Assembly: GCA_041740355.1 (NCBI GenBank)
Contig: JBGSMD010000048.1
Coordinates: forward strand, 1 to 64,000
From: Bdellovibrionota bacterium
GTDB taxonomy: Bacteria > Bdellovibrionota_C > UBA2361 > CALJRW01
Reading direction: 5' to 3'
DNA length: 64,000 nt
This document shows positions 622-29,000 of this stretch, one piece after another; the first letter of the stretch is position 1; each line of letters begins with the position of its first letter. The notes beneath the pieces are model-generated. The model was not told the DNA's origin and made no database searches. It saw nothing but the letters and a program-made list of their open reading frames with translations. The translations under genes were made by a program, and so were the position numbers.

Positions 622-950
622 CTCAACTGAAAGTCTATTATCAAGATAAACTAGCAGGATATCTGTCTGAGAAAAAAAGTAATCAGAATGAAATTTATGA
701 ATTTATTTACGATCAAAGTTATTTAGCACAGCCAACAGCACGACCAATCTCAGTAAATCTTCCACTCCAGGCCGACAAATATATTTCCAAACAACTATTC
801 CCATTTTTTGATAACTTACTAGCAGAAGGTTGGTTATTAGATGCACAACTAAAAACTCATAAATTAAATTCGGAAGATCGGTTTGCACTAATTGCAATTT
901 GTGGTTTAGAAACTATTGGCGCAGTAAGCTTGAAGGGAATAGATGAATAA
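618..950 (+). CDS. HipA N-terminal-domain protein (Couple_hipA, HipS-like antitoxin)
   Basis: YEFIYDQSYL...PISVNLP...LFPFFDNLLAEGW...ETIGAVSL motifs; overlaps both neighbours. Confidence 0.85.
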   Translation: MTQLKVYYQDKLAGYLSEKKSNQNEIYEFIYDQSYLAQPTARPISVNLPLQADKYISKQLFPFFDNLLAEGWLLDAQLKTHKLNSEDRFALIAICGLETIGAVSLKGIDE

Positions 951-1893
951 AACTTGTTTAGCCTGCCTTGCACCCCTAGTAAATTTAGAAAATGAGCTAC
1001 ATGTTAAATGTCGTAGGTCACTATTTGGGTCAAGTAAGGTCGCTCTAAAGCTTCCTTTTAGCCGAGTACAGATTATTATCGAGGCTACTCAAAAAGCTCT
1101 AAGAATGTCGCTGGGTGGGGCTCAGCCAAAAGCCTTAGTCGCAATTAAAAAAGGAGAACTTGCAATTGTAGAAAGTAATGGCCTATTTATTTTAAAGCCT
1201 TCCACCGAGGGTCATCCCCACATAAGTGAGAATGAACATTATTGTATGAATGTTGTCCGAAGTTTTTCACTACCTGTGCCTCCATTCTGTTTAATTAAGT
1301 TAGAGGGCAATGAATACGCTTATTTAATAAAAAGATTTGATCGAGAAAAAGAGAAAAAAATCCATGTGGAAGATTTTGCCTCAGTCTTATCTCAAAAATC
1401 TAGTGAGAAATATGAAAAAAGTTATTTAGCTGTTGCCGTGGCCTTAAGCAAACATAGTCGTGACTATGGACTAGAGAGATACCGTTTATTTCAACTAATC
1501 ATCCTTAGTTACGTTATGGGCAATAATGATCTGCATTTAAAGAATTTTAGCTTAATTGATCAAACCTCTCACTACGAACTTAGCCCTTGTTATGATTTCG
1601 TCTGTTCCAAATATTACTATCCAAGTGCCCCTGAAATGGCGATTGAACTAATGCCTGATTACTTAGGCGGATTAGAAACTACTGGATATTATCAAAGAGC
1701 AGATTTTGAGTTATTAGCCAAAGAACTTAAATTAACGACAGCGCAAACTAATAAATCATTCGAAAAATTATTAGATCATAAAACTAAGATTTTTGGATTA
1801 CTGAATAGTTCATTTATACCAAAAGTAGAACAAGAAAAAATTAAGGAGATTATTGAAAATGGTTATCAGAGAATGTTTGGAAGAATGACTTAA
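943..1893 (+). CDS. HipA-family Ser/Thr kinase toxin (HipT-like)
   Basis: MSLGGAQPK Gly-rich loop, ENEH, IKRFDR, EDF, GNNDLHLKNFSL catalytic motif, LSPCYD. Confidence 0.9.
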   Translation: MNKTCLACLAPLVNLENELHVKCRRSLFGSSKVALKLPFSRVQIIIEATQKALRMSLGGAQPKALVAIKKGELAIVESNGLFILKPSTEGHPHISENEHYCMNVVRSFSLPVPPFCLIKLEGNEYAYLIKRFDREKEKKIHVEDFASVLSQKSSEKYEKSYLAVAVALSKHSRDYGLERYRLFQLIILSYVMGNNDLHLKNFSLIDQTSHYELSPCYDFVCSKYYYPSAPEMAIELMPDYLGGLETTGYYQRADFELLAKELKLTTAQTNKSFEKLLDHKTKIFGLLNSSFIPKVEQEKIKEIIENGYQRMFGRMT

Positions 1894-10267: not shown

Positions 10268-11122
10268 CTATGACTCTGCTTGAAAAATTGAATTTACGAT
10301 TTGAGCCAAATTTAGAAACGGTTGCTTAAATTCTACTTTCAACAAATCAAAATTCTTATTCCAAATCAAGATTTTTTCCTCTAAGTACTTTTTAGCATCT
10401 TGGGAGTTTGAAAACTTATTTATTAAAGTTTGTTTATTATTTTTACTATCACTGGAATCCCTTCTCCCCGTTGACTCTGGGGATAAAAAGCAATCTTGAT
10501 AATCATTAATTAATTGGAAAATTAATCCAAACTCCTCCCCTAGTTTTCTTAATTCTTCAATTTGGAACTCAGTGCATTTCGCTTGAATTCCAGCCATCTG
10601 AAAACCACAAGAAAATAATGACGCTGTTTTCAAACGATTAATGAAACTTAAGTCCGGTTCAGAAGTTTGAGTGATGTCTAAAATCTGACCTAAGCAAACA
10701 TGCAAATATCCATTCGTCAAAACTTTACTCAGCGCTCTTAAGTCTTCTCCCCGTGCATTTTCAACAACAACTTGGATTGCTAAGGTTTGTAAGTAATCAC
10801 CTAATAAAATAGCTAGCGGTTCGGAATATTTTTTATGACAACTTAATTTACCTCGTCGGTAATCATCATTATCTAGAGCGGGAAGATCGTCATGAATTAA
10901 GCTAGCTGTGTGTAAAATCTCCAGACTTAGTGCTGTAAAGTAATGCTCTCTCTGTAGCAATTTTAGATCGTCTAAAAGTGCCACAATAATCATCGGGCGT
11001 AATCTTTTGCCCTGATTAAAAAGCATATACCGAGCAGACTCTTGTAAATTTCCATTATCGGGAATCTTATTTAAGATTTGCTCTAAACATTCATCTAAAT
11101 TTACCAAATATACATTTTTCAT
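10268..11122 (-). CDS. ispA: Polyprenyl (farnesyl/geranylgeranyl) diphosphate synthase
   Basis: GKRLRP, LHTASLIHDDLPALDNDDYRRGK, GQILD, KTASL, FQLINDYQD. Confidence 0.9.
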   Translation of the reverse strand: MKNVYLVNLDECLEQILNKIPDNGNLQESARYMLFNQGKRLRPMIIVALLDDLKLLQREHYFTALSLEILHTASLIHDDLPALDNDDYRRGKLSCHKKYSEPLAILLGDYLQTLAIQVVVENARGEDLRALSKVLTNGYLHVCLGQILDITQTSEPDLSFINRLKTASLFSCGFQMAGIQAKCTEFQIEELRKLGEEFGLIFQLINDYQDCFLSPESTGRRDSSDSKNNKQTLINKFSNSQDAKKYLEEKILIWNKNFDLLKVEFKQPFLNLAQIVNSIFQAES

Positions 11123-11143
11123 AATAATATTAACTAGTTAACT

Positions 11144-12409
11144 TTACCAATAATTTTTTGGGGATCTCTGAAGCAGTGATTTTACACCTCCAATCATATA
11201 CATCGACCCAGCTACAATAGTTTCATTTGTTGAGTTATGGCAAGCTTGGGTAATGGCCTCGCCATAATCATTACCATATTGACGGTAACTATTTACACCA
11301 TGACATTCTAAATAAATTGCAATTTCTTCAGTTATAACTGCAACCTCACTATCAGCTAAAACTATATGCCAAAGCACGATAAAATCTTTTAATTTATCAA
11401 CGAAGTATTTCCAGTTTTTTGTTTGTAAGGCTGCAAAAATAATTTGGAAGTCTTTTTTGTATGGATAATTTATTCGTAAATATTCAACTAAAGCATCAAT
11501 TGATGCTGGGTTATGAGCAGCGTCAACTATAAAAGTATTATTTTGATACACGATAGTTTCGTATCTTCCCGGCCAGTAATAATTAGTAATTCCAGTAGAG
11601 ATATGCTCATTTAAACCAAGCAAAAGGCATGTCTCTATTGCTAGGCAATCGTTAATAGCTTTAGTATGATTTTGATAATGATAATTAAATAATTGAATTG
11701 TTAACTTAGAAGATTGAAATTCCATCCCCCTTTCTAGTCTTCTATATGTAAATTCCTTTCCAAACTGAAAAGATAAAGCTTCTTTGCTTTCTGCAATGAC
11801 TGCTCTAATTACATTATTTGCTTCTTCAGGCAATTCTCCAAGTAATATCCTATTACAGTCTTTAATTATCCCTGCCTTCTCCATAGCAATCTTAGAAATT
11901 GTATCTCCTAAGATTAGTTCATGATCTAAACTAATTGAAGTAATAATAACTGCTTCTGGCTTACTTATAACATTGCTAGCATCTAAACGACCACCTAATC
12001 CTACTTCAATTACAATCCAATCCAATGCTTGAAACATAACAAATGCAGTTGCTGTTATCGCCTCATGATAACTTAGATGGACCTCCTCATTCTCCATAGC
12101 ACGTTTAACTCTTAGTGCCGCTTCAGAAATTTCCAACTCTGTAGCTTCTTTGCCATTAATAATAAATCTTTCGTTAAGCCTGATTAAATGTGGGGAAGTA
12201 TTTAATCCAACATTAAATCCAGCAGCTCCAAGAATTGAGGCAATAGCAATGGAAGTTGTTCCTTTTCCATTTGTTCCTCCCACGTGGATAGATTTAGGAC
12301 GATCTTGTGGGTTTCCTAGCTTTTTTAGGACCTTTTTAATACTATCTAAGCCAAATAGAGATTTATTATCCCATTTAGTGAGAGAATTTAAGAAATCAAT
12401 ACCTTTCAT
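11144..12409 (-). CDS. folC: Folylpolyglutamate synthase/dihydrofolate synthase
   Basis: IHVGGTNGKGTT, TSPHL, EVGLGGRLDASN, ISLDH, WPGR, DAAHNP. Confidence 0.95.
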   Translation of the reverse strand: MKGIDFLNSLTKWDNKSLFGLDSIKKVLKKLGNPQDRPKSIHVGGTNGKGTTSIAIASILGAAGFNVGLNTSPHLIRLNERFIINGKEATELEISEAALRVKRAMENEEVHLSYHEAITATAFVMFQALDWIVIEVGLGGRLDASNVISKPEAVIITSISLDHELILGDTISKIAMEKAGIIKDCNRILLGELPEEANNVIRAVIAESKEALSFQFGKEFTYRRLERGMEFQSSKLTIQLFNYHYQNHTKAINDCLAIETCLLLGLNEHISTGITNYYWPGRYETIVYQNNTFIVDAAHNPASIDALVEYLRINYPYKKDFQIIFAALQTKNWKYFVDKLKDFIVLWHIVLADSEVAVITEEIAIYLECHGVNSYRQYGNDYGEAITQACHNSTNETIVAGSMYMIGGVKSLLQRSPKNYW

Positions 12410-12415
12410 AAATTG

Positions 12416-12477
12416 TTGTCCCGCCGTGGGACAAATGAGTTATTCAGAAATTTAAGGAACTGTCCCGCCGTGGGACA
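12416..12477. promoter_or_regulatory. Two identical parS-like palindromes TGTCCC-GCCGT-GGGACA
   Basis: Copies at 12417-12433 and 12461-12477 immediately downstream of the parB stop; GC-rich in an AT-rich context. Confidence 0.7.
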
Positions 12478-12485
12478 CTAATATA

Positions 12486-13337
12486 TTAAGAAATTAGTTT
12501 TCTAAAAACATGTTGAAGATCCGAGTCATTATGAAAGCTAATCTTCAAAGATCCAGCAGGAGACTTAGGTGATTTTCTAGTTAATACAATCTTAAGACCT
12601 AGAGATCTTCGAATCTCGTCTGAAATACGTAAATCCTCTGCAGAAAGTGTTGTTTTACTTGCTTTTCCCGTTTTTTTGTTAATCTTTTGAGACAAGTCGC
12701 TTCTGGTTAAGATGTCAACTTGATTTAAATAGTTAGCACGTTCTTTCGGATCCTCTATCTTGGCAAGAAGTAAAATCTTAGATTCCGAAGCCCCTTGCCT
12801 CAGAGCATTTAGTAGGTCATCAGGCAAATCAAGTAAATCCAAAGATCTCTGTACTGAACTTTTAGATATTCCTAACTTGTCAGCAATATCTCTAACACTT
12901 AATTTATTAGATTCTTTAAGCGTAGATATAGCATAAGATTTTTCTAATGGTGTTAATTCTGATCGTTGTAAGTTTTCTACTAATTGAATTGCTAGTGTCC
13001 TCTCTCCAGTTTGATCATCGGTTGAATCAACAATAGCAGGAATAGATTTTAATCCAGCTAGCATACTAGCTCTTAACCTTCTTTCCCCAGCGATTAATGT
13101 AAATCTAGAGTTCTTATTAGGTTTTACTAGAATAGGAGAGATAACACCGTATGTCTTAATAGATGTAGTAAGCTCTGCTAGCTGGGCTTCATCAAAGTTT
13201 ACCCTTGGTTGATTTGGATCTTTTTCTATTTGATCTAAGGGTATTAGCTTGTAAGGAAGACTGCCAACAAGCTCTCTTTCTTTTAAGCTTGGGCCTGAAA
13301 ATAGGGGATTATTGGAAAAAGTAATATTCTTAACCAT
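12486..13337 (-). CDS. parB: ParB/Spo0J partition protein
   Basis: DPNQPR, LIAGERRLRA CTP-binding motif, LVENLQR, HTH, Spo0J-like C-terminal dimerisation region. Confidence 0.95.
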   Translation of the reverse strand: MVKNITFSNNPLFSGPSLKERELVGSLPYKLIPLDQIEKDPNQPRVNFDEAQLAELTTSIKTYGVISPILVKPNKNSRFTLIAGERRLRASMLAGLKSIPAIVDSTDDQTGERTLAIQLVENLQRSELTPLEKSYAISTLKESNKLSVRDIADKLGISKSSVQRSLDLLDLPDDLLNALRQGASESKILLLAKIEDPKERANYLNQVDILTRSDLSQKINKKTGKASKTTLSAEDLRISDEIRRSLGLKIVLTRKSPKSPAGSLKISFHNDSDLQHVFRKLIS

Positions 13338-14118
13338 TGATAACTTCCTTTGCTAAAGCTTCATAATCATCTGCTCCTGAAGATTTTGGAGCATGCTCGA
13401 AAATTGATTGTCCATTAGCAGGGGCTTCTGCCAAAGCAACATTTGTTCTTATTACAGTATCAAAAACCAATTGTCCAAAGAAGTCACGAATAGTCTTAGC
13501 AACTGCTCTGGCCAGTTTTTTACGATTATCATGGAGACATATTAATACTCCACCAACCTTTAATTCGGGATTATAAATACTTCGAACTTGATCAATTGTA
13601 TCTAATAACTGACGAACTCCATGAAGTGCCAAATATTCACTTTGTACAGGTACGATAACTTTATCCACAGCCGCCAAAGCATTTAAACTAAGCAACCCCA
13701 AGGCAGGAGGACAATCAATTACAATATAATCATATTGATCTTTAATTTTTGATAAGGCACGTTTAAGTAAAAGTTCACGTCCTACCATACCTCCAAGTTC
13801 TAAGTCCGCAGCACTTAATAATAAACTTGATGGAACAACATCTACATTCTCAGAGCGGCTAATTACTACATCTTTAATATCCTTAGATCCTTTAAGAACA
13901 TCATAAATGGTATATTTTGGAGCGAATTCAGCATCTGGATCATTGGCAATTTCATCAGTGTTACTTAAACCTAAATGTGTGGTTAAATTACTTTGAGCAT
14001 CCATATCTACTAAGAGAGTCTTCTTCCCCAAGTTTGCAATTGCAGCACCTAAATTTACACTGGTGGTAGTTTTACCAACTCCACCTTTTTGATTTAGAAT
14101 TCCTATAATCTCGGCCAC
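13330..14118 (-). CDS. parA: ParA/Soj partition ATPase
   Basis: NQKGGVGKTTT deviant Walker A, DMDAQ, IDCPP, LAEAPANG; GTG start with AGGGG RBS. Confidence 0.95.
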   Translation of the reverse strand: MAEIIGILNQKGGVGKTTTSVNLGAAIANLGKKTLLVDMDAQSNLTTHLGLSNTDEIANDPDAEFAPKYTIYDVLKGSKDIKDVVISRSENVDVVPSSLLLSAADLELGGMVGRELLLKRALSKIKDQYDYIVIDCPPALGLLSLNALAAVDKVIVPVQSEYLALHGVRQLLDTIDQVRSIYNPELKVGGVLICLHDNRKKLARAVAKTIRDFFGQLVFDTVIRTNVALAEAPANGQSIFEHAPKSSGADDYEALAKEVING

Positions 14119-14146
14119 TTCTTATCCCCTTTAAAAAACTTATCTA

Positions 14147-14250
14147 AGATCACTATATCTAATCCTCATGAGATCGCGAATAAGATCAAAACAGATCACG
14201 GCAATAATAGATCAACTACCTAGAATCATAAGATGCTGATATCATTGATC
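14147..14250. promoter_or_regulatory. GATC cluster of the putative origin
   Basis: GATC at 14148, 14172, 14184, 14194, 14210 and 14247 (five as AGATC). Confidence 0.6.
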
Positions 14251-14287
14251 TTTTTTATTTATTGTTTGACTCTAGTTAATATACTCA

Positions 14288-14496
14288 TATCGTGATTTGA
14301 AGTAAAATACTATTTACTAGTGTTTAGAAATAAATTCTTCATGAATATCGTGCTCTTAGATAAGTAAAGATTGTGCTTGGAGATTAGTATTATCGGGAAT
14401 TGGCATAAGACTTATCGTTTTTCGAAATAATCTTTATCGTTCTTGGAAGTAAGCTTCATCGTGATTTGAAGTAAGAAATATCGTGCCTACAAATAA
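14288..14496 (+). repeat. Iteron array of a putative replication origin (nine 18-bp repeats, consensus approximately TATCGTGNTTNGAARTAA)
   Basis: Starts at 14288, 14316, 14346, 14369, 14391, 14413, 14435, 14457, 14479; last six at exact 22-bp pitch; followed by an AT-rich tract and repA. Confidence 0.85.
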
Positions 14497-14643
14497 ATAT
14501 TTTGATTTAAGTATTTAATAAGATTAAGATTCTCTACCGCTCACTTATTACAAGTAACTTAAAATAACATTTGTAAACTACTATAAAAGTTAGTAGATCT
14601 AATTTAATAAATATTAGTTTAAAAACATTTTAAATTTTCTTGA

Positions 14644-16140
14644 ATGACAGCACTACCTAAAAAATTATCTGATAACACTGGGGGAGTGTCATTAATCTCA
14701 CGCGATGAGATGAACTTAGCGGAATTTCCACTAACAATGTTATCAAATAGAGCTGATCCAAAAATTAAAACTCTTGAATTCAAAGATATAATAAAAAATA
14801 AAAATGGGCGAGAGGTCAACCGCGAGTGGGTAATTACGGGCACGGATAAATTTGGATTACCTACTGCCTCTGATGACGAAGTCTTACTTGGACTTTTAAA
14901 ATTATCATTTGAGGATCAATTATTTAAAAATAAAAAAGTTACTTTTACGCGCTATGAATTATTAAAGATTTTACGTTGGCCAACAGAAGGGAAAAACTAT
15001 AAACGCCTACTCGGAGCCCTTGATCGCCTAAGTGGTGTTAGAATCAAAGCTACAAATGCTTTTTTTGATAATGAAACAAAAGCCTATAGTACCAAAAACT
15101 TTGGAATTTTGGATGCTTATGAACTAAATGATGGTCGAGAGAATCGAACGAAACCTAGTTATTTTATTTGGAGTGATGAAATTTTCCATTCTTTCCAGTC
15201 AGGCTTTATCAAAAAGTTAGATTTAGATTTTTATTTGGATCTAAACAGTTCAATTTCTAAAAGACTTTATCGCTTTTTAGATAAAAATTTCTGGTATCGG
15301 GCACAACTAAAAATTAATCTTTTTAATTTATGTCACGAAAAAATTGGCATCTCTAGAAATTTTAAATACGCCAGCTCCTTAAAGCAGCAATTGGAACCAG
15401 CCCTAGAGGAGCTATTAAAAGTCAATTTTATTTCTTCTGTAGAATACTTGGGAAAAGGGGCCAAGACTGAAATTATCCTTTCAGGGGCGAGCCTAGTTCC
15501 ACGCTCACAACAACAGCAAGGCAATAATAAGGCTGAAGTTATTCCTGTGACCAGTCCTACTAAAATTGTTAGCCAGGCTAAACCTACAGTTGATCTTGCA
15601 CTTAGTCCCTCAGCGAGGGTCCGTAAATCATTAGAGGAGCGGGGCATTGCGCCGAACCAGTCTGAGATTTTGCTAAAGGCACGAACAGATTATCATCTTC
15701 GAAAGATGGAGATGGTTATTAAATATTTTGATTATTTAATCTCGAGCCATAGTAATCTTGTTAGTACTAGTCCTGTCGGATTCTTGTATAATGCTATCAA
15801 GAAAATTGAAGATTTCGCATTACCTAAATCCTTTAGTATGGAACCGCAAAAACCAATAAATACTAATTATGCGAAGAAACAGCCATCAAAGGATAGCCAC
15901 TTAGGTGAAGAGTATAATAAGTTTTTAGATGTTGAGATAGAAAAGGCTAGGAAAGAGGTTGCCCCAGAAATTCTAGCTAAAATTCAAGCCGAAGTTACAG
16001 TTCAATATGAAAGATTTCGTAATCTAGTTGCGGAGGAAAGATTTAACGACAGTATTAGGCACAGTATAGATCAGAAGTTAATGAAACTTTATGTTATTCC
16101 TGAGTTTGATGAGTGGAAGAGGGGATTAAAAGCAAAATAG
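14644..16140 (+). CDS. repA: Plasmid-type replication initiator protein A (RPA family)
   Basis: DEMNLAEFP, GLPTASDDEVLLGLL, FTRYELLKILRW...GKNYKRL..ALDRL, KRLYRFLDK; divergent from parAB with iterons upstream. Confidence 0.85.
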   Translation: MTALPKKLSDNTGGVSLISRDEMNLAEFPLTMLSNRADPKIKTLEFKDIIKNKNGREVNREWVITGTDKFGLPTASDDEVLLGLLKLSFEDQLFKNKKVTFTRYELLKILRWPTEGKNYKRLLGALDRLSGVRIKATNAFFDNETKAYSTKNFGILDAYELNDGRENRTKPSYFIWSDEIFHSFQSGFIKKLDLDFYLDLNSSISKRLYRFLDKNFWYRAQLKINLFNLCHEKIGISRNFKYASSLKQQLEPALEELLKVNFISSVEYLGKGAKTEIILSGASLVPRSQQQQGNNKAEVIPVTSPTKIVSQAKPTVDLALSPSARVRKSLEERGIAPNQSEILLKARTDYHLRKMEMVIKYFDYLISSHSNLVSTSPVGFLYNAIKKIEDFALPKSFSMEPQKPINTNYAKKQPSKDSHLGEEYNKFLDVEIEKARKEVAPEILAKIQAEVTVQYERFRNLVAEERFNDSIRHSIDQKLMKLYVIPEFDEWKRGLKAK

Positions 16141-16388
16141 CAGACTGCTTTCTCTCTAATTATTGAAATCTTTGCGTTGGCCCTGAAATGAAAATCATTT
16201 TATTTGTTGCCAGAAGCTCCTCTAGAAGTGCTAATTTTAGGAATCTTTCCGGTTGAGCCATTCCTGACTATTTATCGATTGACTAATAGTTGGTCCTTAA
16301 AATAGTAAGTAATATAGGACTATTAACAAAAAAATAGCATACAAGTGTCAATTGTTTACTAATCAGAAACCCCATTTTTTGAATAAAT

Positions 16389-17399
16389 TTATCTCTTAGA
16401 AATTCCAATAGCTTCCCGAACCTTTCTAAGTATTGGATTAGCGATGGCCTCAGCCTTCACTTTGCCCTCTGCTAGAACTTCATCTAAAAACTTTTGATCT
16501 CCACGAATTTCTTCGTACTTAAGCCGCGAGTCATAGACCTCCCGATTAATTGCTTGGAACAGATCTTCTTTGGCGTTTCCCCAACCAAGTCCACCTGCGG
16601 CAAGTCGTTTTTCTAAATCGGCAAACTCACTGTTTGTAGCAAAAAGTTTGTAAAGATTCCCTAACAACGATCCTGCTAATACTTTTGGCTCCTCTAAAGG
16701 TGTTGAGTCTGTGGTTAAAGACATAATCTTTTTCCGTAGTTGTTTTTCAGGAAGCATCAGCTCAATGGTGTTATTGTAACTTTTTGACATCTTCTGGCCA
16801 TCAAGACCTGGAATCAGCATTACATCTTCGGCAATCATCACTTCGGGTTGCTTTAAGATTACTTCTCCAGCTCCATAAATGGCGTTAAACGAGCCTGCAA
16901 TATTACGCGCCATTTCCACGTGTTGCTTCTGATCTTTACCAACAGGGACAACGTCTGGCGCATAAAGCAAGATATCTGCTGCCATTAGGATTGGATAGTA
17001 AAATACTCCTACATTTACTTCATTATTTTTAGCGCGTGCGTCCTTGTAGGCATGACCCTTTTCTAATAAACCTATCCCAGTAACACAGGAGAGATACCAA
17101 GAGAGTTCCACATTAGGTAAATCGGATTGGCGATAGAGCAAATGTTTCTTATAATCCAGCCCAACAGCTATCCATAAAGCTACTTGATGGTAGATACTTT
17201 CTTGCTGTTTTACTGGGTCTTTCTGCTTAGTCAAAGAATGTAAATCTGCTAAGAAATAGAGGCACTGATAATCATTTTGAAGTTTAAGGGCAGGTTTTAT
17301 AGCACCTAAATAATTACCGATATGGATTTCTCCAGAAGTTGTAATGCCTGTTAATGCTCTTTTCATACTAAATAATTGATAATAATTGATTTCTGACAC
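16389..17399 (-). CDS. trpS: Tryptophanyl-tRNA synthetase
   Basis: HIGNYLGA, ADLHSLT, YPILMAADILLY, VPVGKDQKQH, KMSKS. Confidence 0.97.
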   Translation of the reverse strand: MSEINYYQLFSMKRALTGITTSGEIHIGNYLGAIKPALKLQNDYQCLYFLADLHSLTKQKDPVKQQESIYHQVALWIAVGLDYKKHLLYRQSDLPNVELSWYLSCVTGIGLLEKGHAYKDARAKNNEVNVGVFYYPILMAADILLYAPDVVPVGKDQKQHVEMARNIAGSFNAIYGAGEVILKQPEVMIAEDVMLIPGLDGQKMSKSYNNTIELMLPEKQLRKKIMSLTTDSTPLEEPKVLAGSLLGNLYKLFATNSEFADLEKRLAAGGLGWGNAKEDLFQAINREVYDSRLKYEEIRGDQKFLDEVLAEGKVKAEAIANPILRKVREAIGISKR

Positions 17400-17438
17400 T
17401 ATCAGAAATCTTAATTTCTTAATAGACTCGAACTCCGA

Positions 17439-18230
17439 ATGTCACTAAAAAATCTCTTATTCCATAAATCACGAAACCTCAATTTATATCAAGGAAATTG
17501 CTTAGATGTGCTTGCCAAAATTCCAGAGGAGTCGATTGATTTAATTTTTGCCGATCCACCATATAATCTCTCTAACAATGGCTTCACAGTAAAATCCGGC
17601 AAGCGCGTCTCAGTGAATAAGGGACAATGGGATGAGAGCCAAGGAGTGGAAGCTGATTTTGAATTCCATCGATCGTGGATTAATGCTTGTCAGAGAGTGT
17701 TAAAACCAAATGGTACAATCTGGATTAGTGGAACTTATCATTCCATTTATCAATGTGCCTTTGCTTTGCAATTAAGTAATTTCCAGATCTTAAATGATAT
17801 TAGTTGGTATAAACCTAATGCTTCACCTAACATTAGCTGTCGTTACTTCACTGCAAGCCATGAAACCCTTGTCTGGGCTAAGAAAGATCCTAAAGCTAAA
17901 CATACTTTTAATTATCAAGTAATGAAGAAAGGGGATTGGCATGAAAAAGATTTGCTTAAGAATCAAGATAAACAAATGCGCAGTGTTTGGTCGATTCCAG
18001 TTACTAAGAAATCAGAAAAAATTAATGGTTATCATCCCACCCAAAAACCTTTAGAATTATTGACTAGGATTGTATTATCAAGTTCAAATGCCGGGGACAC
18101 GGTATTAGATCCTTTCTGTGGCAGTGGTACAACGGGAGTTGTGGCAATTAGAGAAAAAAGAAAGTTTATCGGTATAGACTTAAGTAAGCAGTATTTGGAA
18201 CTCAGCCAGCAAAGGATTTTAATTAAGTAA
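17439..18230 (+). CDS. Orphan beta-class N6-adenine DNA methyltransferase, DpnA (M2.DpnII)-like, probably GATC-specific
   Basis: DLIFADPPYNLSN, VSVNKGQWD, PNISCRYFTASHE, KQMRSVW, HPTQKP, LDPFCGSGTTG; no adjacent restriction enzyme. Confidence 0.88.
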   Translation: MSLKNLLFHKSRNLNLYQGNCLDVLAKIPEESIDLIFADPPYNLSNNGFTVKSGKRVSVNKGQWDESQGVEADFEFHRSWINACQRVLKPNGTIWISGTYHSIYQCAFALQLSNFQILNDISWYKPNASPNISCRYFTASHETLVWAKKDPKAKHTFNYQVMKKGDWHEKDLLKNQDKQMRSVWSIPVTKKSEKINGYHPTQKPLELLTRIVLSSSNAGDTVLDPFCGSGTTGVVAIREKRKFIGIDLSKQYLELSQQRILIK

Positions 18231-23097: not shown

Positions 23098-26000
23098 ATG
23101 CAAATTACTCCTTGTAATTCTAGGGTAAACTCGTCTGGCCCAGATTCAAATCTCAAGTCTCCGTTTTCTAGTTTAAAATTAGCTTATCATTTTGGACTAT
23201 TTCTACTTCTTAGCATTCCCCAGTTAGTTTTCGCGCAACCTTATGATGCAACTCTATCAGCAACTCCTGGAGCGGAAGGTGGATCAAATGTAATTTTTAC
23301 GGTCACACTAGATGCGATTAACTCCTCAGGATTTCCAATAACGTTTGAATTAAATCCTAATGGAGGCACCGCAAGTGCTGGAGACTTCACGGATTTTACA
23401 GCAGAGACGATTTCTATTCCAAATGGTTCTGATACAGGAACTTTTAATGTTGTGCTTAATGATGATGCTCTTTTTGAAAATACGGAGACACTTGGTGGAA
23501 TAATATCTAATCCATCAGATGGGACAGTCACAATTGTAGGAGCATCTACGGTCACTAATATTACAGACAATGATAACGGCGCAGGAACTGTTACGGCTAA
23601 TTTAAGTGTAACTGATGGGACTGAAGGTTCGACTGATGTTATTTTTACAGCGACTCTTAGTAAAACAAATAATACCGGAAGTCCTATAACTCTCAGTATT
23701 AATCCAAACGGTTTAGGAACCGCCGTTTCGGGGACAGATTATCCAGATTTTACTGGAGGGATAATTACAATTGCTGATGGTTCTGCCACAGGCACTTATC
23801 AAGTGACTCCAGCTTTAGATGGAGAGTTCGAAAATGTAGAAGATTTCGGTGCAATAATTTCTGCGCCAAGTGATCCTGCTGTAGTTGTTGGAACAGCAAC
23901 TGCCACTGGGAATATTAATGATGGCGATACTGCTAATTTAGTACTTAGCGTTACAACGCAAGGAAATGAAGCTGGGCCAGTTAGTATCGTCTACACTGCG
24001 ACACTTTCTAGCATTAACAGTAAGTCTGTTCCAATTACTGTTCAAATTAATCCAGATGGTGGAACAGCAACTGCCAGTAGTGATTATTCCAATTTCTCAG
24101 GTCGAATAATCACAATATTACCTGGAAGTAACAGTGGAACTGTTAATGTTTCTGTTGCAGATGATAATTTCTTTGAAAGTACAGAAACAGTTACTGGAAC
24201 ACTATCAGCGGTCTCCGATCCCGGTGTAACAATCACTGGCCCTTCAGCGACAGCCAATATCACTGATAACGATAATACTGCTGCTAGTGTTAACTCTCTT
24301 TTAACACTTAGTGGTTTAGGTAGCGAAGCAGGTGCTACTACCATGACTTTGACAGTTTCCTTATCCAAGAAGAACTTTACCGGAAGTCCAATTGTTTTTG
24401 ATTTGAGTCAAACCGCTGGAACAGCAACTGATGGTGCGGATTATACAGATTTAACAGGTGCAACTATCTCAGTTGCCAATGGATCAGACATTGGGACCTT
24501 CTCATTTAGTGTGGTGGATGATGCCTTATTTGAAAATGATGAAACTTTTACCATTTCACTTTCCAATCCGAGTAATCCCGCAATTAATCTATTTTCTCCA
24601 AATGCATCTGGGGTAATTGTTGATAATGATAATGTGACTGCTACAACTAATGCCGTATTAAGCGTTAATAATGGAACGGAGGGAGGATCTGATTTAATTT
24701 TCAACGTAACCTTAAGTCAAACTAATAACACGGGCGTTCCAATCACATTTGAAATATATCGGAATGGTGGATCAGCTACTGTAACCACTGATTATAGCGA
24801 TTATGCAGGATTAATTTCTGTACCGAATGGTTCAAATGTTGGAACTTTGAATGTTACTATTGTTGATGACGCTTTTTTTGAAAATTCGGAAACAGTAGCA
24901 GCTGGGATATATAATCCTTCAGATCCAGCCATTCAAATTACAGTTCCAAAAGTTACTGGAAATATTATTGATAATGATAATGTTACTATTGGGGCTGATT
25001 TAACAGCAGAAGTGAATGGAAATGAAGCTGGGAGAGTAAGCATTGTTTATCGCGTAACTTTAACAAATGCTAATAATACAGGTAGCGATATTTTCTTTGA
25101 CATTGATCCAATCGGTGGAACAGCAACTCCAGGAATTGATTATGTAGATTTTACCGGTCGAACAATCCGAGTTGGAAGTGGTAGTAGCATTGGGGAAATT
25201 TCAGTTGAAGTTACCGATGACTCATTAATTGAAAATGATCAAACAGCAGAAGCTGTAATTACTAATAGTAGCGATCCGGCTGTAACTATTGGAACAGCAA
25301 ACGCTACAGCTTCTATAATTGATAATGACAATAGTATTGGATCAATTACGGCAGACTTAGTTCGTTTAGTTGATGGACATGAGTCTGGACTGATTAATAT
25401 AATCTATCAAGTTGAGCTATCAGAAGTTAACTATACTGACTCTGCTATAACTTTTAATATTGATCCGATTGGTGGGACTGGGACTGCTGGGGTAGATTAT
25501 GTTGATTTTACAGGGGCACAAATTGTTGTTCCCTCCGGATCTCGTTTTGGACAATTTACAGTTGCCGTGCTTAATGATCCCGATTTAACTAGCGATACCG
25601 TAGTTGCCCAAATTTCTAGTCCTTCCGATACTAGTATCAATTTAGGTACTGATACAGCAACAGCTACTATTAACGATGATGATGCTCCAACTGGAACTTA
25701 CAACGCTAGTATTAGGGATGCTGTTATTCAAGGTAACGAAACTGGTGTTGTAAACGTTAGTTTTGTTGTTGAATTATCTGAACCTAACACTACTGGCTCT
25801 GCAATAACATTTGATATCAATCCATTAGTTGGTGGAACTGCAACTCTTACTTCCGATTATACCAACTTTACCGGTCAAACTGTAAGTATTCCCAACGGTG
25901 CTTCGCAAGCTACATTTAATGTGACAGTCGTTAATGATACTCTTTATGAAAGTACGGAATCACTCTTTGCAGAAATTTCCAATCCAAGTTCAGGTGCAGT

Positions 26001-29000
26001 TACGATTATTGACTCTGATGCAGTAGGGTATATTTATGACAATGATCAAATTCACTCTGCAGTAATTACTGGAACTGTTAATGGTGCTGAAGCTGGACTT
26101 GTCGCGATGGAGTACACAATCACTATTCCAGTCATTAATAACACTCAAAATCCAATCCAATTTAATATAGCTTCTGCCGGAGGTAGAGCATCTTCAGGAG
26201 TCGATTATGATTCACTAGTTAGTAGTACTATTTCTATACCAGTTGGAGCCAATTCAGTTTCATTCACTGTTGATGTATTAGATGATCTTCTATTTGAGAA
26301 TACTGAAAATGCTATAATTAGTATGTTGAATCCATCTGATCCTGGTATCTATTTGAACTTTGGAAATACCAGAGGTTCGGCTAGTATTATTGACAATGAT
26401 AACATTGGAGTTAATGCTGTTTTAGATGTCCTCCAAGATGGTTCTGAAGCAGGACCGACAAGCATGATTTATCGTGTTACATTATCAGAGCCTAATAACA
26501 CAGGTGGGACAATATTTTTTGACATTGATCCGATTGGAGGGTCTGCTCTTCCAGGGGATGCGGTTGAAAATAATGACTATATTGATTTCACAGGATCTCG
26601 AATTGGTGTTCCAAGTGGATCAAGCACGGGAACATTCTCAGTTTCAATTTCCAATGATACTCGTTTTGAAAATATTGAGACGATTGAGACTGAAATTTCA
26701 AATCCAAGCGATCCCGCCGCGGTATCAATTATTACTGCAGTTGCAACTGGAAATATTAACGATAACGATAATGCTCCAGCAGATGTTACAGCTTCGATAT
26801 CAACCTTTGGAATCGGAAATGAAGATGGACCGACATCTGTTACATTTTTAGTAACTCTTTCTAATATTAACTTTACTGACCAAGACGTAACATTTGATAT
26901 TAATCCAACAGGTGGAACTGCGACTGTCGGAAGCGATTATGTTGATTTCTCTGCAATCCAAGTTGCAATTCCTTATGGACAAGACAGAGCTCTTTACACG
27001 ATTACAGTCTTAGATGATGCGTTATTTGAAAATACGGAAACGATAGAAGCAACACTCAGCAATCCTTCTGATCCAGCAATTGATATTACCACAGCAACGG
27101 CAACAGGACTATTATTAGATAACGATAACGTTACAAATACAATTAATGCAAATCTTTCTGTTACAACTCAAGGCGAAGAAAATCTAACTAATATTGTTTA
27201 CACAGTAACCCTTGACGAAGTTAATGATACGCCATTCCCAATTGATTTCACGCTATATGTTGATGGTGGAACTGCTGTTGCTGGCACAGACTACACAAAT
27301 TTTAACGGAGTAACGATTAGTGTTCCTGTTGGATCTAACCAAGGTACCTATACAGTTAATGTTACTAACGACTTATTATTTGAAAATTTAGAAACAGCTA
27401 TTGCTGAACTTGCTAATCCTTCTGATGCTGCAATTGTAATTGGGACAGCAATTGCAACTGCAAATATTACTGATGACGATGTTACAGTTGCTAATATTGC
27501 AGTAACAACTAATGGGGATGAAGATGGTCCAGTAGATTTAGTTTATACAATAAGCATTTCTAATACTAATGGTACTGGTAGTGATATCGAAATTGATGTT
27601 GATCCAGATGGTGGCACAGCTACAATTGGATCAGATTATACAACATTTGCGGGAAGTACTGTAATTATACCAGATGGAAGTAGCTCGGTAACACTAACAG
27701 TTCCAGTGCTTGATGATTCATTATTTGAAAACACAGAAACCGTAGGTGCTGAAATCTCAAACCTATCGCATCCAAGTTTAAGTTTAGCTACAGCAACAGC
27801 CACAGGAGACATTCTTGATGATGAGAATGGAGTTGGTGCAGTAAATGCAGTTCTCTCGACAATTACTAACGGCACAGAATCAGGAACTCAAATTCGCTAT
27901 CGTGTAACTTTAGCGACTATCAACAATACTGGCTCTCCAATTACTTTTGATATTGATCCAACTGCTGGAACAGCGATTGCTAATACTGATTACACAACGT
28001 TTGCGGGTGCTACAATTACAGTTGCTAATGGTGCAAGTACTGGAGACTTATTAGTAACTGTTACTGATGATACTCTATTTGAAAATACCGAAACTGCCAC
28101 AGCAACTATTACTAACGCTAGTGATCCAGCAATTAATATTTCTACAGGCAGTGCCACAGCAAATATTATCGATAATGATAATACAGCTTCCAGCATTAGC
28201 GCAGTTCTTACTACAACTCAGAACGGCAATGAAACCGGACCAGTTGATATAAGTTTATTGTTAACAATTGGGAAAATTAACAACACCGGAGCACCGATTG
28301 TTTTTACAATTACTCCGAGTGGTGAAGCAGTTTCTGGAAGTGATTATACAGGATTAACAACGATCTCAATTCCAGATGGCTCAGATACGGGGACATTAAT
28401 TTTAACTGTAGTTGATGATCTTTTATTTGAGAATGAAGAGGATGCAACTTTCACTGTAACTGCAGCCACAGATCCAGCGATCACTACAGGTTCAAATACA
28501 ACGCCAACAATTACAGATAACGATAATACTGCGACTAGTATCACAGCAAACTTATCTAAAACAACTGATGGTTTAGAAGGAACAACAAATATTGTCTTTA
28601 CTGTTACTTTAGATAAGGTCAACAATACTCATGCACCAATCTTAATAGATATCGATCCAACAGGTGGAACAGCAATTGCTGGCACAGATTATACTAACTT
28701 TGCTGGTGCTCAGATTTCCATTCCTGATGGTTCAAGCAGTGGAACATATACTGTTATAGTTACCAACGACGCTCTATTTGAGAATACGGAAACAGTTCAA
28801 GCAACAATCACGAATCCATATGATCCTGCTGTTACTTTAGGTACAACATTAGCCACAGCAGATATTGTTGATAGCTCACCACAAGCAACTATCACTGCAA
28901 CTACTAGCGGTAATGAGACCGGACCAGTATCAATTGTTTATTCAGTTAACTTAGGCAAAACAAATGACACAGGAGCCACAATAACTTTTGATGTTGATCG

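What the first reader, a model, noticed from the sequence alone, without database searches (positions are those of the whole stretch)
10268..18230. Plasmid-type iteron/RepA replicon welded into housekeeping genes: chromid origin or Rep-driven chromosomal origin
Seen: ispA-folC-[parS x2]-parB-parA on the minus strand, then GATC cluster, iterons and AT-rich tract, then repA, trpS and a DNA methyltransferase. folC starts within ~10 bp of the parS-like sites and 76 bp after parB, so parAB-folC-ispA look co-transcribed. There is no integrase, relaxase, conjugation gene or att boundary in 64 kb, and no dnaA/dnaN/gidAB beside parAB. ParA/ParB look chromosomal (Soj/Spo0J-like) whereas the initiator is plasmid-type. 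Most long genes within ~25 kb point away from the iteron region. Known: chromids pair plasmid-type Rep/Par systems with core genes. Inference: this is the active origin of a secondary chromosome, or a main chromosome initiated by a domesticated Rep.
Basis: partly seen in the sequence, partly recalled or inferred. Interest (0 to 1): 0.9.

Follow-up and report, generated by a model that had tools for sequence, protein, structure and literature searches.

The report
Origin of an ancient second chromosome
This stretch is the replication origin and segregation locus of a plasmid-type but essential second chromosome that appears to be inherited throughout a whole uncultured bacterial lineage, making it one of the most deeply conserved split genomes seen so far.

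Summary
On the minus strand lie ispA, folC, two 17-nt palindromes, parB and parA. Next comes a 525-nt spacer holding a GATC cluster, 7-8 iterons in 22-nt phase and AT-rich tracts. Then repA (Pfam RPA), trpS and a CcrM-like methyltransferase.

- **Own genome:** dnaA, dnaN and a second parAB sit on other contigs. trpS and folC are single-copy.
- **Conservation:** the RepA ortholog occurs in 86 of 91 genomes of the order and 78 of 78 genomes of the phylum that are at least 90% complete.
- **Module:** parB-parA-spacer-repA, the iteron core TCGTG at 22-nt spacing and the palindrome TGTCCCAC-N-GTGGGACA are all conserved. The palindrome occurs exactly twice per genome, beside parB.
- **Skew:** in three relatives GC skew switches negative to positive at repA, as at dnaA. 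The repA contigs are 0.71 and 1.87 Mb, and one carries dnaB and dnaE.
- **A separate bin:** a one-contig 2.28-Mb relative has dnaA but no repA or palindrome.

Best reading (about 0.8): the origin and centromere of a vertically inherited, RepA-driven second chromosome. A single chromosome with two origins is not excluded by skew. It is a new member of a known kind, unusual in depth and size.

The parts
10268..11122 (-). ispA (farnesyl-diphosphate synthase type), last gene of the putative parA-parB-folC-ispA operon
   Evidence: Pfam PF00348 at 6e-47 and NCBIfam FPPsyn at 1e-51. The only other hit in the genome is a 27%-identical paralog. It lies next to folC in 15 of 22 relatives' loci that show the full five-gene order.
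11144..12409 (-). folC, single-copy, starting 7 nt after a parS2 site
   Evidence: TIGR01499 at 3e-96. It is the only tblastn hit in the genome. It is adjacent to parB in 18 of 22 loci of the order. In G096, from another order, folC is on the dnaA contig.
12417..12433 (.). parS2 site a: a 17-nt palindrome-like centromere site (TGTCCCGCCGTGGGACA)
   Evidence: It is one of only 2 copies in the 3.27-Mb genome. The consensus TGTCCCAC-N-GTGGGACA lies downstream of parB in 20 of 21 loci. There are exactly 2 sites per genome, both beside parB2, in 4 of 4 repA-bearing genomes searched, with 0 for the reversed control pattern.
12461..12477 (.). parS2 site b, identical copy, 8 nt after the parB stop
12486..13337 (-). 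parB2, chromosomal (Spo0J)-type centromere-binding protein
   Evidence: ParB_N at 2.5e-26, HTH_ParB at 5e-9 and TIGR00180 at 5e-42. It is 31% identical to the second ParB on contig C26 and 59% identical to the G016 ortholog. Its best hits in the plasmid collection are Mb-sized records at about 34% identity.
13330..14118 (-). parA2, a short Walker-type partition ATPase whose gene overlaps parB by 8 nt
   Evidence: AAA_31 at 1e-60. It is 43% identical to ParA on C26 and 69-77% identical across the order.
14138..14251 (.). GATC cluster (6 GATC in 110 nt) containing one inverted iteron-like copy at 14138-14158. It is a putative parA promoter or operator region; function unknown.
   Evidence: (inverted repeat I3, 90% complementary to the iteron at 14345-14365). 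It is conserved in the same-genus locus L007 but not across the order.
14288..14500 (+). Iteron array: 7-8 direct repeats with core TATCGTG, in 22-nt phase from 14346 to 14500; the inferred RepA binding sites
   Evidence: Across 22 orthologous spacers TCGTG occurs 119 times in the repA sense, against 23 antisense and 6.7 expected. 21 of 22 loci have at least 3 copies, and 36 of 97 gaps are exactly 22 nt.
14500..14643 (.). AT-rich tract (up to 93% AT) with a 70-nt block (14538-14607) identical in the sister species. It is the inferred unwinding element and/or repA promoter-operator.
   Evidence: No DnaA box (up to 1 mismatch) lies anywhere in 14119-14643.
14644..16140 (+). repA, an RPA-family (PF10134) initiator of 498 aa: conserved N-terminal initiator part, Q-rich linker, and a conserved C-terminal part (about 320-498) without any Pfam family
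   Evidence: Orthologs occur in 86 of 91 genomes of the order and 78 of 78 genomes of the phylum that are at least 90% complete. They form one group apart from plasmid RPAs in a quick tree.
16389..17399 (-). trpS, single-copy tryptophan-tRNA ligase
   Evidence: TIGR00233 at 2e-82. It is the only hit in the genome. It lies within the 20 kb fetched around repA in 8 of 22 relatives' loci.
17439..18230 (+). CcrM-like beta-class N6-adenine DNA methyltransferase. It neighbours repA only within the genus and its membership of the origin system is doubtful.
   Evidence: PF01555 at 7e-64. NF050803 (CcrM) scores 4e-76 but is far below its cut-off. It was found near repA only in L007.

Best explanation
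Window 12.4-16.2 kb is ori2 plus the centromere of a second, essential chromosome (a chromid).

**Replication.** RepA is a winged-helix initiator of the RPA/TrfA/Rep_3 kind. It binds the 7-8 iterons in 22-nt phase at 14288-14500. It opens one of the flanking AT-rich tracts and recruits the host helicase, so that replication proceeds in both directions.

**Segregation.** ParB2 loads on the two 17-nt parS2 palindromes just downstream of its own gene. Together with ParA2 it segregates this replicon independently of the DnaA chromosome, which has its own ParAB.

**Inheritance.** The module was acquired once, deep in this uncultured lineage. It has been inherited vertically ever since, with housekeeping genes (folC, ispA, often trpS) fixed right beside it.

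**What is shown.**
- Gene identities, repeats and their phasing.
- Uniqueness of the parS2 sites.
- Lineage-wide conservation.
- An origin-polarity skew switch at repA in relatives.
- Core genes on the repA contigs.

**What is inferred.**
- RepA-iteron and ParB2-parS2 binding.
- The position of the unwinding element.
- Co-transcription of parAB-folC-ispA.
- Physical separateness of the replicon.
For: **1. Initiator and iterons.**
- PF10134 scores 66.9 bits against a cut-off of 27.
- The iterons are phased at 22 nt.
- The same core and the same 22-nt spacing recur in 21 of 22 orthologous spacers: 119 sense, 23 antisense, 6.7 expected.
- A plasmid paralog on C40 has its own array sharing the CGTGA core but with a different 3' half.

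**2. Private centromere.**
- The palindrome occurs twice in the whole genome.
- It is found in 20 of 21 loci, with covarying arm changes in L095 and L099.
- There are exactly 2 sites per genome, all within about 3.6 kb of repA, in G016, G096, G011 and G009. There are none in G046, and none for the control pattern.

**3. A separate DnaA system.**
- dnaA is on C56, dnaN on C10 and a second parAB on C26.
- dnaA was found in 109 of 124 genomes of the phylum, and in 72 of 73 high-quality ones.
- In about 97 genomes where both genes were located, they never share a contig.

**4. Vertical inheritance.**
- RepA orthologs occur in 86 of 91 genomes of the order (55 of 55 high-quality) and 78 of 78 genomes of the phylum at 90% completeness or more.
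- The five-gene order ispA-folC-parB-parA-repA holds in 15 of 22 loci, and parB-parA-repA in 21 of 22.
- In the quick tree the 27 chromosomal RepAs form one group (SH-aLRT 94). This group splits by order (96 and 93), apart from 8 in-lineage plasmid paralogs and 3 planctomycete plasmid RPAs.

**5. Origin activity in relatives.**
- G016 contig C3 has negative skew from 49 to 692 kb (19 of 20 samples between 24 and 487 kb, and 20 of 20 bins between 492 and 692 kb). It flips to positive at repA, 692,258.
- G096 contig C2 is negative in 7 of 7 samples to the left of repA (587,062) and positive in 6 of 6 to the right. It has one terminus-type switch at 1.52-1.65 Mb.
- G009 contig C17 flips at about 350 kb, at its repA.
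- The polarity matches that at dnaA in G016, G096 and G046.

**6. Chromosome status.**
- trpS and folC are single-copy in the window's genome.
- G016:C3 encodes DnaB, DnaE, DnaK, SufB, Prs, GuaA and Lon.
- GC content of C48 is 0.361, like the rest of the genome.

**7. A dnaA-only bin.** G046 is a single 2,283,970-bp contig at 82% completeness. It has dnaA and one ParB of the chromosome-1 kind. It has no repA, no TrpS match and no parS2. Its skew shows one origin, one terminus and the same sign at both ends.
Against: - No closed, circularised assembly was seen. Contig orientation is free, so the skew patterns of G016 and G096 fit one circle with two origins as well as two circles.
- No end overlaps were found on any large contig.
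- G046 carries folC on its single contig. It could be a lineage that lost or fused the second replicon, rather than a bin missing it.
- G000 contigs map in a mixed way onto G016 C2 and C3. Gene content of the two replicons is therefore not conserved between families, or paralog noise misleads, since 46% of G016 was not sampled.
- In G009 repA, parA and parB are each split over 2-3 reading frames, so the module is not indispensable everywhere.
- The window's own skew signal is weak.
- No DnaA box lies in the spacer. Many iteron origins have one (recalled).
- No binding, replication or copy-number data exist.
Confidence: 0.8

Rival explanations
1. There is one chromosome with two different origins. 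DnaA-oriC and the RepA-iteron origin lie on the same circular molecule and both fire, and ParAB2/parS2 acts as a second origin-proximal segregation system.
For: - After allowing for free contig orientation, the skew patterns of G016 and G096 fit a circle with 2 origins and 2 termini.
- Gene content maps in a mixed way between G016 C2 and C3, as frequent intrachromosomal rearrangement would give.
- No contig was shown to be circular.
Against: - The two-circle reading gives balanced arms for each replicon. In G096, C1 has dnaA at 2.07 Mb and its terminus within 0.26-0.70 Mb, against a predicted 0.44 Mb. C2 has its origin at 0.587 Mb and its terminus at 1.52-1.65 Mb, against a predicted 1.52 Mb.
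- G046 is one contig with dnaA, one origin and one terminus, the same skew sign at both ends, and no repA or parS2.
- A complete private ParABS kept under strong purifying selection (ParA 69-77% identical) is the hallmark of an independent replicon.
- Natural dual-origin bacterial chromosomes are not known, apart from recently fused Vibrio strains (recalled).
Confidence: 0.07
2. This is a domesticated or decaying plasmid remnant integrated in the main chromosome. The genes persist but the site no longer fires as an origin.
For: - In G009 repA, parA and parB are frameshifted.
- The window's own skew signal is weak.
Against: - Intact, strongly conserved RepA is found in 78 of 78 genomes of the phylum that are at least 90% complete, with more than 100 invariant residues among 45 sequences.
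- Iteron phasing is conserved.
- Sharp skew switches occur exactly at repA in 3 genomes.
- No integrase or att was seen.
Confidence: 0.03
3. The RepA replicon is the primary chromosome, and DnaA no longer initiates anything.
For: - In G016 the repA-side contigs (C3, C1, C5 and C4, about 1.39 Mb if all belong together) exceed the dnaA contig (1.25 Mb).
- They carry dnaB and dnaE and a 16S gene on C1.
Against: - dnaA is conserved in 72 of 73 high-quality genomes.
- dnaA sits at an origin-type skew switch of its own in G016, G096 and G046.
- dnaA and dnaN lie at facing contig ends in the window's genome.
Confidence: 0.03
4. This is a binning artefact: contig C48 is a plasmid or foreign contig wrongly placed in this genome.
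For: The genome is a 74-contig draft.
Against: - GC content is the same as the rest of the genome.
- Single-copy trpS and folC are found nowhere else in the genome.
- The same locus is present in 86 of 91 genomes of the order, including on contigs of 0.7-1.9 Mb.
Confidence: 0.01

Closest known systems
Vibrio cholerae chromosome 2 (RctB, ori2 iterons, ParAB2/parS2)
   Same: Both are essential second chromosomes with a plasmid-like iteron origin, a dedicated initiator and their own ParABS, inherited vertically across a whole taxon. Both initiators carry extra domains beyond the plasmid core. (Seen: abstracts of PMC3350373, PMC5397143 and PMC8565311 in the listings. The rest is recalled.)
   Different: - The initiator family differs: RPA/PF10134 here, RctB there.
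- No Dam-class methylase was found here.
- No crtS-like coupling site is known here.
- parS2 here is a derivative of the canonical chromosomal parS.
- Conservation here spans a whole (small) GTDB phylum rather than a family.
- In G016 the RepA side may be the larger half.
Deinococcus radiodurans chromosome II and megaplasmid (the cisII and cisMP elements)
   Same: Both have direct repeats (iterons) immediately upstream of a parAB operon on secondary replicons that carry important genes. PF10134 rings in the D. radiodurans and T. thermophilus control genomes. (Seen: passages of PMC7671480.)
   Different: - The repeats there are 18 bp, with overlapping non-canonical DnaA boxes and reported binding by DnaA and ParB. 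The authors found no known initiator on those replicons.
- Here no DnaA box is present, and the parS sites are separate palindromes downstream of parB.
- Deinococcus plasmid RPAs are only about 22-28% identical to this RepA.
RPA-family initiators of Isosphaeraceae (Planctomycetota) plasmids
   Same: These are the nearest named relatives of RepA, at 31-34% identity over 75-82% of its length. They group with this lineage's own plasmid-type paralogs in the tree.
   Different: Those replicons are non-mobilizable plasmids of 25-132 kb. The chromosomal RepAs form their own group (SH-aLRT 94) and are at least 39% identical to one another across the phylum.
Classical iteron plasmids (R6K Pi, RK2 TrfA, F RepE, pPS10 RepA) - recalled
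   Same: Both have direct repeats phased at about two helical turns next to an AT-rich tract and the rep gene. There are weak Pfam matches to TrfA (3e-4) and Rep3_N (4e-4).
   Different: There is no sequence-level match to any solved structure. An extra conserved C-terminal part of about 180 aa has no family. The replicon is Mb-sized and carries core genes.

Membership tests
Chromid / secondary chromosome (criteria of Harrison et al. 2010, recalled) | Plasmid-type replication and partition system | tested here: met
   The RPA initiator scores above the Pfam cut-off, and the locus has phased iterons and its own parAB.
Chromid / secondary chromosome (criteria of Harrison et al. 2010, recalled) | Carries core genes found on the chromosome in other bacteria | tested here: met
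   trpS and folC are single-copy in the window's genome. DnaB, DnaE, DnaK, Prs and GuaA are on the repA contig of G016. Their copy number in G016 was not checked.
Chromid / secondary chromosome (criteria of Harrison et al. 2010, recalled) | Base composition like the main chromosome | tested here: met
   C48 has GC 0.361, while the large contigs range from 0.354 to 0.371. G096 C1 and C2 are both at about 0.56-0.58.
Chromid / secondary chromosome (criteria of Harrison et al. 2010, recalled) | Physically separate replicon | tested here: inconclusive
   - The locus has its own origin-type skew switch.
- repA never shares a contig with dnaA in about 97 genomes.
- G046 is a single dnaA contig without repA or parS2.
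- However, no circular closure was shown, and the skew also fits a two-origin circle.
Chromid / secondary chromosome (criteria of Harrison et al. 2010, recalled) | Conserved within a genus or higher taxon | tested here: met
   86 of 91 genomes of the order and 78 of 78 genomes of the phylum at 90% completeness or more.
RPA initiators (Pfam PF10134) | Match above the gathering score | tested here: met
   66.9 bits against 27, covering residues 20-244.
RPA initiators (Pfam PF10134) | Sequence-specific binding to iterons and origin opening | not testable with these tools
   Inferred only, from conserved phased repeats beside the gene.
Iteron-type theta origin | Tandem direct repeats in helical phase next to the rep gene | tested here: met
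   There are 7-8 repeats in 22-nt phase. Across 22 loci, 36 of 97 gaps are exactly 22 nt.
Iteron-type theta origin | Adjacent AT-rich unwinding region | tested here: met
   14240-14320 is 75-82% AT, and 14580-14640 is 85-93% AT.
Iteron-type theta origin | DnaA box in the origin (common, not universal; motif recalled) | tested here: not met
   No TTATCCACA with up to 1 mismatch lies in 14119-14643. Window-wide counts are at chance level: 19 found against 20.2 expected.
Iteron-type theta origin | Replication starts here | tested here: inconclusive
   A negative-to-positive skew switch occurs at the orthologous site in G016, G096 and G009. In the window itself there is only a shallow cumulative minimum.
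Chromosomal-type ParABS (Soj/Spo0J-like) | Short Walker ParA plus ParB with N-terminal and HTH domains | tested here: met
   ParA is 262 aa (AAA_31). ParB has ParB_N plus HTH_ParB and matches TIGR00180.
Chromosomal-type ParABS (Soj/Spo0J-like) | Canonical 16-nt parS (TGTTNCACGTGAAACA, recalled) | tested here: not met
   No match with up to 2 mismatches anywhere in the genome. Instead there is a 17-nt relative, TGTCCCAC-N-GTGGGACA.
Dam/SeqA-type methylation-controlled origin | GATC cluster at the origin | tested here: met
   Six GATC in 110 nt, the densest non-coding cluster in the genome. It is conserved only in the sister species.
Dam/SeqA-type methylation-controlled origin | Dam (D12-class) methyltransferase in the genome | tested here: not met
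   PF02086 gave 0 matches in the 97%-complete genome. The neighbouring methylase is beta-class and CcrM-like, of unknown specificity.
Integrated plasmid / ICE | Integrase, relaxase or conjugation genes, and att boundaries | tested here: not met
   None appeared among the 29 window ORFs scanned; not all ORFs were scanned. The flanking genes are syntenic across the order.

The most novel reading that the evidence does not exclude
In this lineage the DnaA-oriC and the RepA-iteron origin sit on one and the same circular chromosome and both fire. That would be a natural bacterial chromosome with two different origins, each with its own ParABS. The frameshifted repA, parA and parB of G009 would then mark a lineage reverting to a single origin. 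The skew data fit this as well as they fit two circles. Only the balance of the arms, the one-contig genome G046 and prior knowledge speak against it.
Probability: 0.07. Interest if true: 0.95.

Novelty: new member of a known kind. Interest (0 to 1): 0.62.

Why it matters
Secondary chromosomes are usually regarded as traits at genus to family level (recalled). Here the same RepA-iteron-ParABS module is present in every sufficiently complete genome of a whole GTDB phylum. That phylum is small and uncultured, and 124 species genomes of it are held.

- **Scale.** The module sits on Mb-sized contigs. In one member those contigs carry the replicative helicase and the polymerase III alpha subunit, and they may make up the larger half of the genome.
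- **Depth.** If the two replicons are confirmed as separate, this would be among the most deeply conserved split genomes known.
- **Centromere evolution.** parS2 looks like the canonical site with three arm positions changed on each side and one extra central base. This offers a natural example of how a chromosomal ParB-parS pair is re-specified to serve a second replicon.
- **Initiator.** The RPA family has hardly been studied experimentally, so this gives a well-defined set of iterons and initiators to work on.
- **Genome binning.** Single-contig "complete" genomes of this lineage may lack a whole chromosome. G046, at 82% completeness, looks like such a case.

Tried and rejected
- **Dam/SeqA reading of the GATC cluster.** No D12-class methylase was found. 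GATC and GANTC are not depleted genome-wide, at 4.27 and 3.30 per kb. The cluster is not conserved beyond the genus. Its function is left open.
- **GATC cluster on C30 as a possible oriC.** It is a coding repeat.
- **Canonical parS and a chromosome-1 parS.** I found no canonical site and no convincing repeated palindrome near parB on C26.
- **DnaA boxes in the spacer.** None were found.
- **Terminators between parB and folC.** None were predicted.
- **Known RNAs and tRNAs in the window.** None were found.
- **Contig circularity.** No end overlaps were found. Junction-spanning open frames of 243 and 284 codons in G096:C1 and G046:C1 extend only 120 and 69 nt past the junction, so they are not evidence.
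- **Skew-sign argument for separate circles.** I withdrew it because contig orientation is free (note 6).
- **Replicon-level gene-content conservation between G000 and G016.** The mapping was mixed and uninformative.
- **RepA against solved structures by sequence profile.** Nothing scored below E 0.05.
- **RepA C-terminal part against Pfam.** Nothing was found at E up to 1.
- **Name of the phylum.** I could not establish it. Homologs are labelled by NCBI as Oligoflexia, Bdellovibrionales, Bdellovibrionota, Deltaproteobacteria or Dadabacteria MAGs.
- **Literature.** Searches, and a term search within PMC13342612, found no report of a split genome in such a lineage. Supplements were not consulted.
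- **Careful tree search.** It did not finish, so the quick tree (SH-aLRT only) is what is reported.

Full report
**What is there**

The window is the first 64 kb of an 87.9-kb contig (C48). The draft genome has 74 contigs, 3.27 Mb and 36% GC, and is 97% complete.
- On the minus strand: ispA (10268-11122), folC (11144-12409), parB (12486-13337) and parA (13330-14118).
- On the plus strand: repA (14644-16140). It matches PF10134 "Replication initiator protein A" at 66.9 bits against a cut-off of 27.
- Then trpS (16389-17399, minus) and a beta-class N6-adenine methyltransferase (17439-18230, plus). The methyltransferase's best NCBIfam match is CcrM, but far below that model's cut-off.

parA and parB overlap by 8 nt. 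The parB-folC gap is 76 nt and the folC-ispA gap is 21 nt. No terminator-like site was found between 12300 and 14700. Co-transcription is therefore plausible, but it is inferred.

**The cis elements**

*The palindromes.* Two exact copies of TGTCCCGCCGTGGGACA lie at 12417 and 12461. They are the only copies in the whole genome, even with 2 mismatches.

*The 525-nt parA-repA spacer (27% GC)* holds four features.
- A cluster of six GATC within 110 nt (14148-14251). It is the densest non-coding cluster in the genome.
- One inverted iteron-like copy at 14138-14158.
- An array of 7-8 same-strand repeats with core TATCGTG, in 22-nt phase from 14346 to 14500, plus one more copy at 14288.
- AT-rich tracts on both sides of the array, reaching 93% AT just before repA.

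No DnaA box with up to 1 mismatch lies in the spacer.

The spacer is 88% identical to that of a same-genus MAG (L007). The GATC cluster, the iterons and a 70-nt block (14538-14607) are all kept.

**The rest of the genome**

- dnaA lies at the start of contig C56 and dnaN at the start of C10. The assembly probably breaks at oriC.
- A second parAB lies on C26. Its ParA is 43% and its ParB 31% identical to the window's pair.
- trpS and folC have no other copy. ispA has only a 27%-identical paralog.
- Two small contigs (C31, C40) carry a 33%-identical RPA paralog with parA. C40's repA is preceded by about ten repeats of its own. These share the CGTGA core but differ in the 3' half. That pattern is what one expects if these repeats are the initiators' binding sites.

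**Conservation**

*RepA.* Full-length RepA orthologs at about 50% identity are present in the following proportions.

| Sample searched | Genomes with RepA |
|---|---|
| Relatives sample | 40 of 41 |
| Order | 86 of 91 |
| Order, high-quality only | 55 of 55 |
| GTDB phylum, at least 90% complete (all one class) | 78 of 78 |

The database search gave more than 1,100 homologs. The best 120 are about 47-58% identical, apart from the same-genus MAG protein (79%), one partial protein (81% over 62% of the query) and one at 63% over 60%. The named ones are labelled as Oligoflexia, Bdellovibrionota or Deltaproteobacteria MAGs. I could not name the phylum.

*Neighbouring genes.* I examined 22 orthologous loci from about 18 families.
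- parB-parA-spacer-repA is present in 21 of 22.
- The full order ispA-folC-parB-parA-repA is present in 15.
- folC is next to parB in 18.
- trpS lies within the fetched 20 kb in 8.

*The iteron core.* TCGTG occurs 119 times in the repA sense in these spacers, against 23 antisense and 6.7 expected from shuffles. 21 of 22 loci have at least three copies. 36 of 97 gaps are exactly 22 nt, with 10 more at 21 or 23 nt and 10 at 44 or 45 nt.

*The palindrome.* The consensus TGTCCCAC-N-GTGGGACA lies within 400 nt downstream of parB in 20 of 21 loci. Two loci carry changes on both arms together (TGTACC...GGTACA). A whole-genome pattern search found exactly two sites per genome in G016, G096, G011 and G009, all within about 3.6 kb of repA. 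It found none in G046, and none for the reversed control pattern.

The site looks like the canonical parS (recalled) with TTT changed to CCC on each arm and one extra central base. The canonical site itself is absent from the genome.

*The tree.* A quick maximum-likelihood tree puts the 27 chromosomal RepAs in one group (SH-aLRT 94). Within it, the window's order (20 rows, 96) is split from the other orders (7 rows, 93). The group stands apart from 8 plasmid-type paralogs of the same lineage and 3 Isosphaeraceae plasmid RPAs. The careful search did not finish, and several outgroup branches are long.

The nearest named plasmid initiators are 31-34% identical (Isosphaeraceae). Those of Deinococcus are about 22-28% identical.

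**Is it an origin?**

A negative-to-positive skew switch keeps its polarity when a contig is reverse-complemented. In the same genomes it marks dnaA, which gives an internal calibration.

| Genome and contig | Skew pattern |
|---|---|
| G016 C3 (708,979 bp; genome 5 contigs, 2.64 Mb) | Positive for 1-45 kb, negative from 49 to 692 kb, positive again from repA (692,258) |
| G016 C2 (1,252,138 bp) | Switches at 590-630 kb, where dnaA lies (599 kb) |
| G096 C2 (1,866,914 bp; another order, 57% GC, 3 contigs) | Negative at 100-587 kb, positive from repA (587,062) to 1.52 Mb, negative from 1.65 Mb to the end |
| G096 C1 (3,256,849 bp) | dnaA at 2.07 Mb. Positive at 0.1-0.25 Mb and 2.8-3.25 Mb, negative at 0.7-1.2 Mb |
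| G009 C17 | Switches at about 350 kb, at its repA |

The window's own cumulative skew has only a shallow minimum at 13-18 kb.

**Is it a separate replicon?**

This is the weakest link. Contig orientation is free, so all these patterns fit either of two models:
- two circles, each with one origin and one terminus; or
- one circle with two origins and two termini.

I first noted the opposite and corrected it (note 6).

For two circles:
- Each large contig has its terminus roughly opposite its origin (G096 C1, G096 C2, G016 C2).
- dnaA and repA never share a contig in about 97 genomes where both were located. This is weak evidence, given how fragmented most assemblies are.
- The lineage maintains a complete, private ParABS under strong constraint (ParA 69-77% identical).
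- G046 fits a closed first chromosome whose partner was not binned. It is a single contig of 2,283,970 bp at 82% completeness. It has dnaA (865 kb) and one ParB of the high-scoring kind that lies on the dnaA contig in G016. It has no repA, no TrpS match and no parS2. Its skew shows one origin, one terminus (1.8-1.95 Mb) and the same sign at both ends.

Against:
- G046 does carry folC.
- No circular closure could be shown.
- G000 contigs map in a mixed way to G016 C2 and C3.

**Chromosome status**

- The repA contig of G016 encodes DnaK, SufB, PRPP synthetase, the DnaB helicase, GMP synthase, DNA polymerase III alpha and Lon.
- If C1, C4 and C5 of G016 belong with C3, the RepA side (about 1.39 Mb) exceeds the DnaA contig (1.25 Mb). 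It would also carry one of the two 16S genes.

**Mechanism**

I propose the ordinary iteron mechanism.
1. RepA binds the phased repeats.
2. It opens an adjacent AT-rich tract.
3. It recruits the helicase.
4. ParB2 on the two parS2 sites, working with ParA2, segregates the replicon.

The inverted iteron copy inside the parA-proximal GATC cluster could couple RepA occupancy to par-folC-ispA expression. This is speculation.

RepA has a very conserved N-terminal part. Over 100 invariant positions in 45 sequences fall mostly within residues 20-272. A variable Q-rich linker follows, then a conserved C-terminal part with no known family. No structure could be predicted.

**Comparison and novelty**

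The system works like the second chromosomes of Vibrio and the secondary replicons of Deinococcus. It meets the chromid criteria that I could test; physical separateness remains inconclusive. It is a new member of a known kind.

Three things are unusual:
- the depth of conservation, across a whole small phylum;
- the Mb size and core gene load;
- the re-specified parS.

Noticed in passing
L107 (G009:C17:341001-361000), about 6.8-10.7 kb in the locus: In this 1.9-Mb, 31%-GC relative, repA, parA and parB are each split over 2-3 reading frames, and folC was not found anywhere in the genome. Meanwhile ispA and the neighbouring ORFs are intact, both parS2 sites remain, and the skew still switches there. 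Either the second-origin module has recently decayed (for example after a fusion), or this is a local assembly error.
   Followed up: partly
G046:C1 (single contig, 2,283,970 bp): This one-contig genome of the same order is 82% complete. It has dnaA, 16S and folC but no repA, no TrpS match and no parS2. Such apparently complete genomes of this lineage may lack a whole chromosome.
   Followed up: partly
G000 contigs C31 (5.4 kb) and C40 (18.7 kb): These are two plasmid-like contigs sharing 4.3 kb at 84% identity. Each has an RPA paralog (33% identical to RepA) and parA. On C40 there are about ten iterons of its own, (A/T)CGTGATC..AGGGAGT.
   Followed up: partly
window 14538-14607: A 70-nt block just upstream of repA is 100% identical between the window and the sister species, although the spacer overall is 88% identical. 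It contains short palindromes and may be the repA operator or promoter, or a small RNA. There was no Rfam hit.
   Followed up: partly
window 17439-18230 and 14148-14251: An orphan-looking CcrM-like methyltransferase and the GATC cluster occur together in the window and in the sister species, but the pair was not seen in other families. A link between them is possible but untested.
   Followed up: partly
window 23098-39045 (+): A giant ORF of 5,315 aa with LapA and many Calx-beta domains (first 3,000 aa scanned). It is probably a large repetitive adhesin.
   Followed up: partly
window 943-1893 (+): A HipA-like kinase (HipA_C, 5e-45), possibly the toxin of a toxin-antitoxin pair. Its neighbour was not examined.
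   Followed up: no
window 40001-43561 (-): FixO and cytochrome c domains, plus a weak COX1 match. These look like parts of a cbb3-type oxidase cluster.
   Followed up: no
many relatives (for example G047:C123:110, G084:C222:83, G068:C245:124, G056:C224:379, G074:C133:330): repA often begins within a few hundred bases of a contig end. The iteron and AT-rich spacer therefore seems to break short-read assemblies. In the same way, dnaA and dnaN of G000 both lie at contig starts (C56, C10).
   Followed up: no
G000 contigs against G016 C2 and C3: Best-hit mapping of 143 conserved ORFs gives mixed C2 and C3 assignments along single G000 contigs (for example C30, C51 and C9). The gene content of the two replicons seems to be reshuffled between families. 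Paralogs and the 46% of G016 that was not sampled may also contribute.
   Followed up: partly
L020:13498-15858 (G016:C3) and G000:C39:66700-69033: A TraG/VirD4-type coupling protein is conserved at 62% identity between the two genomes. This suggests a conserved type IV secretion or conjugation-like system.
   Followed up: no
G016: No ortholog of the window's TrpS was found in G016 (94% complete). The only hit is 29% identical, in a 421-aa open frame on C2.
   Followed up: no
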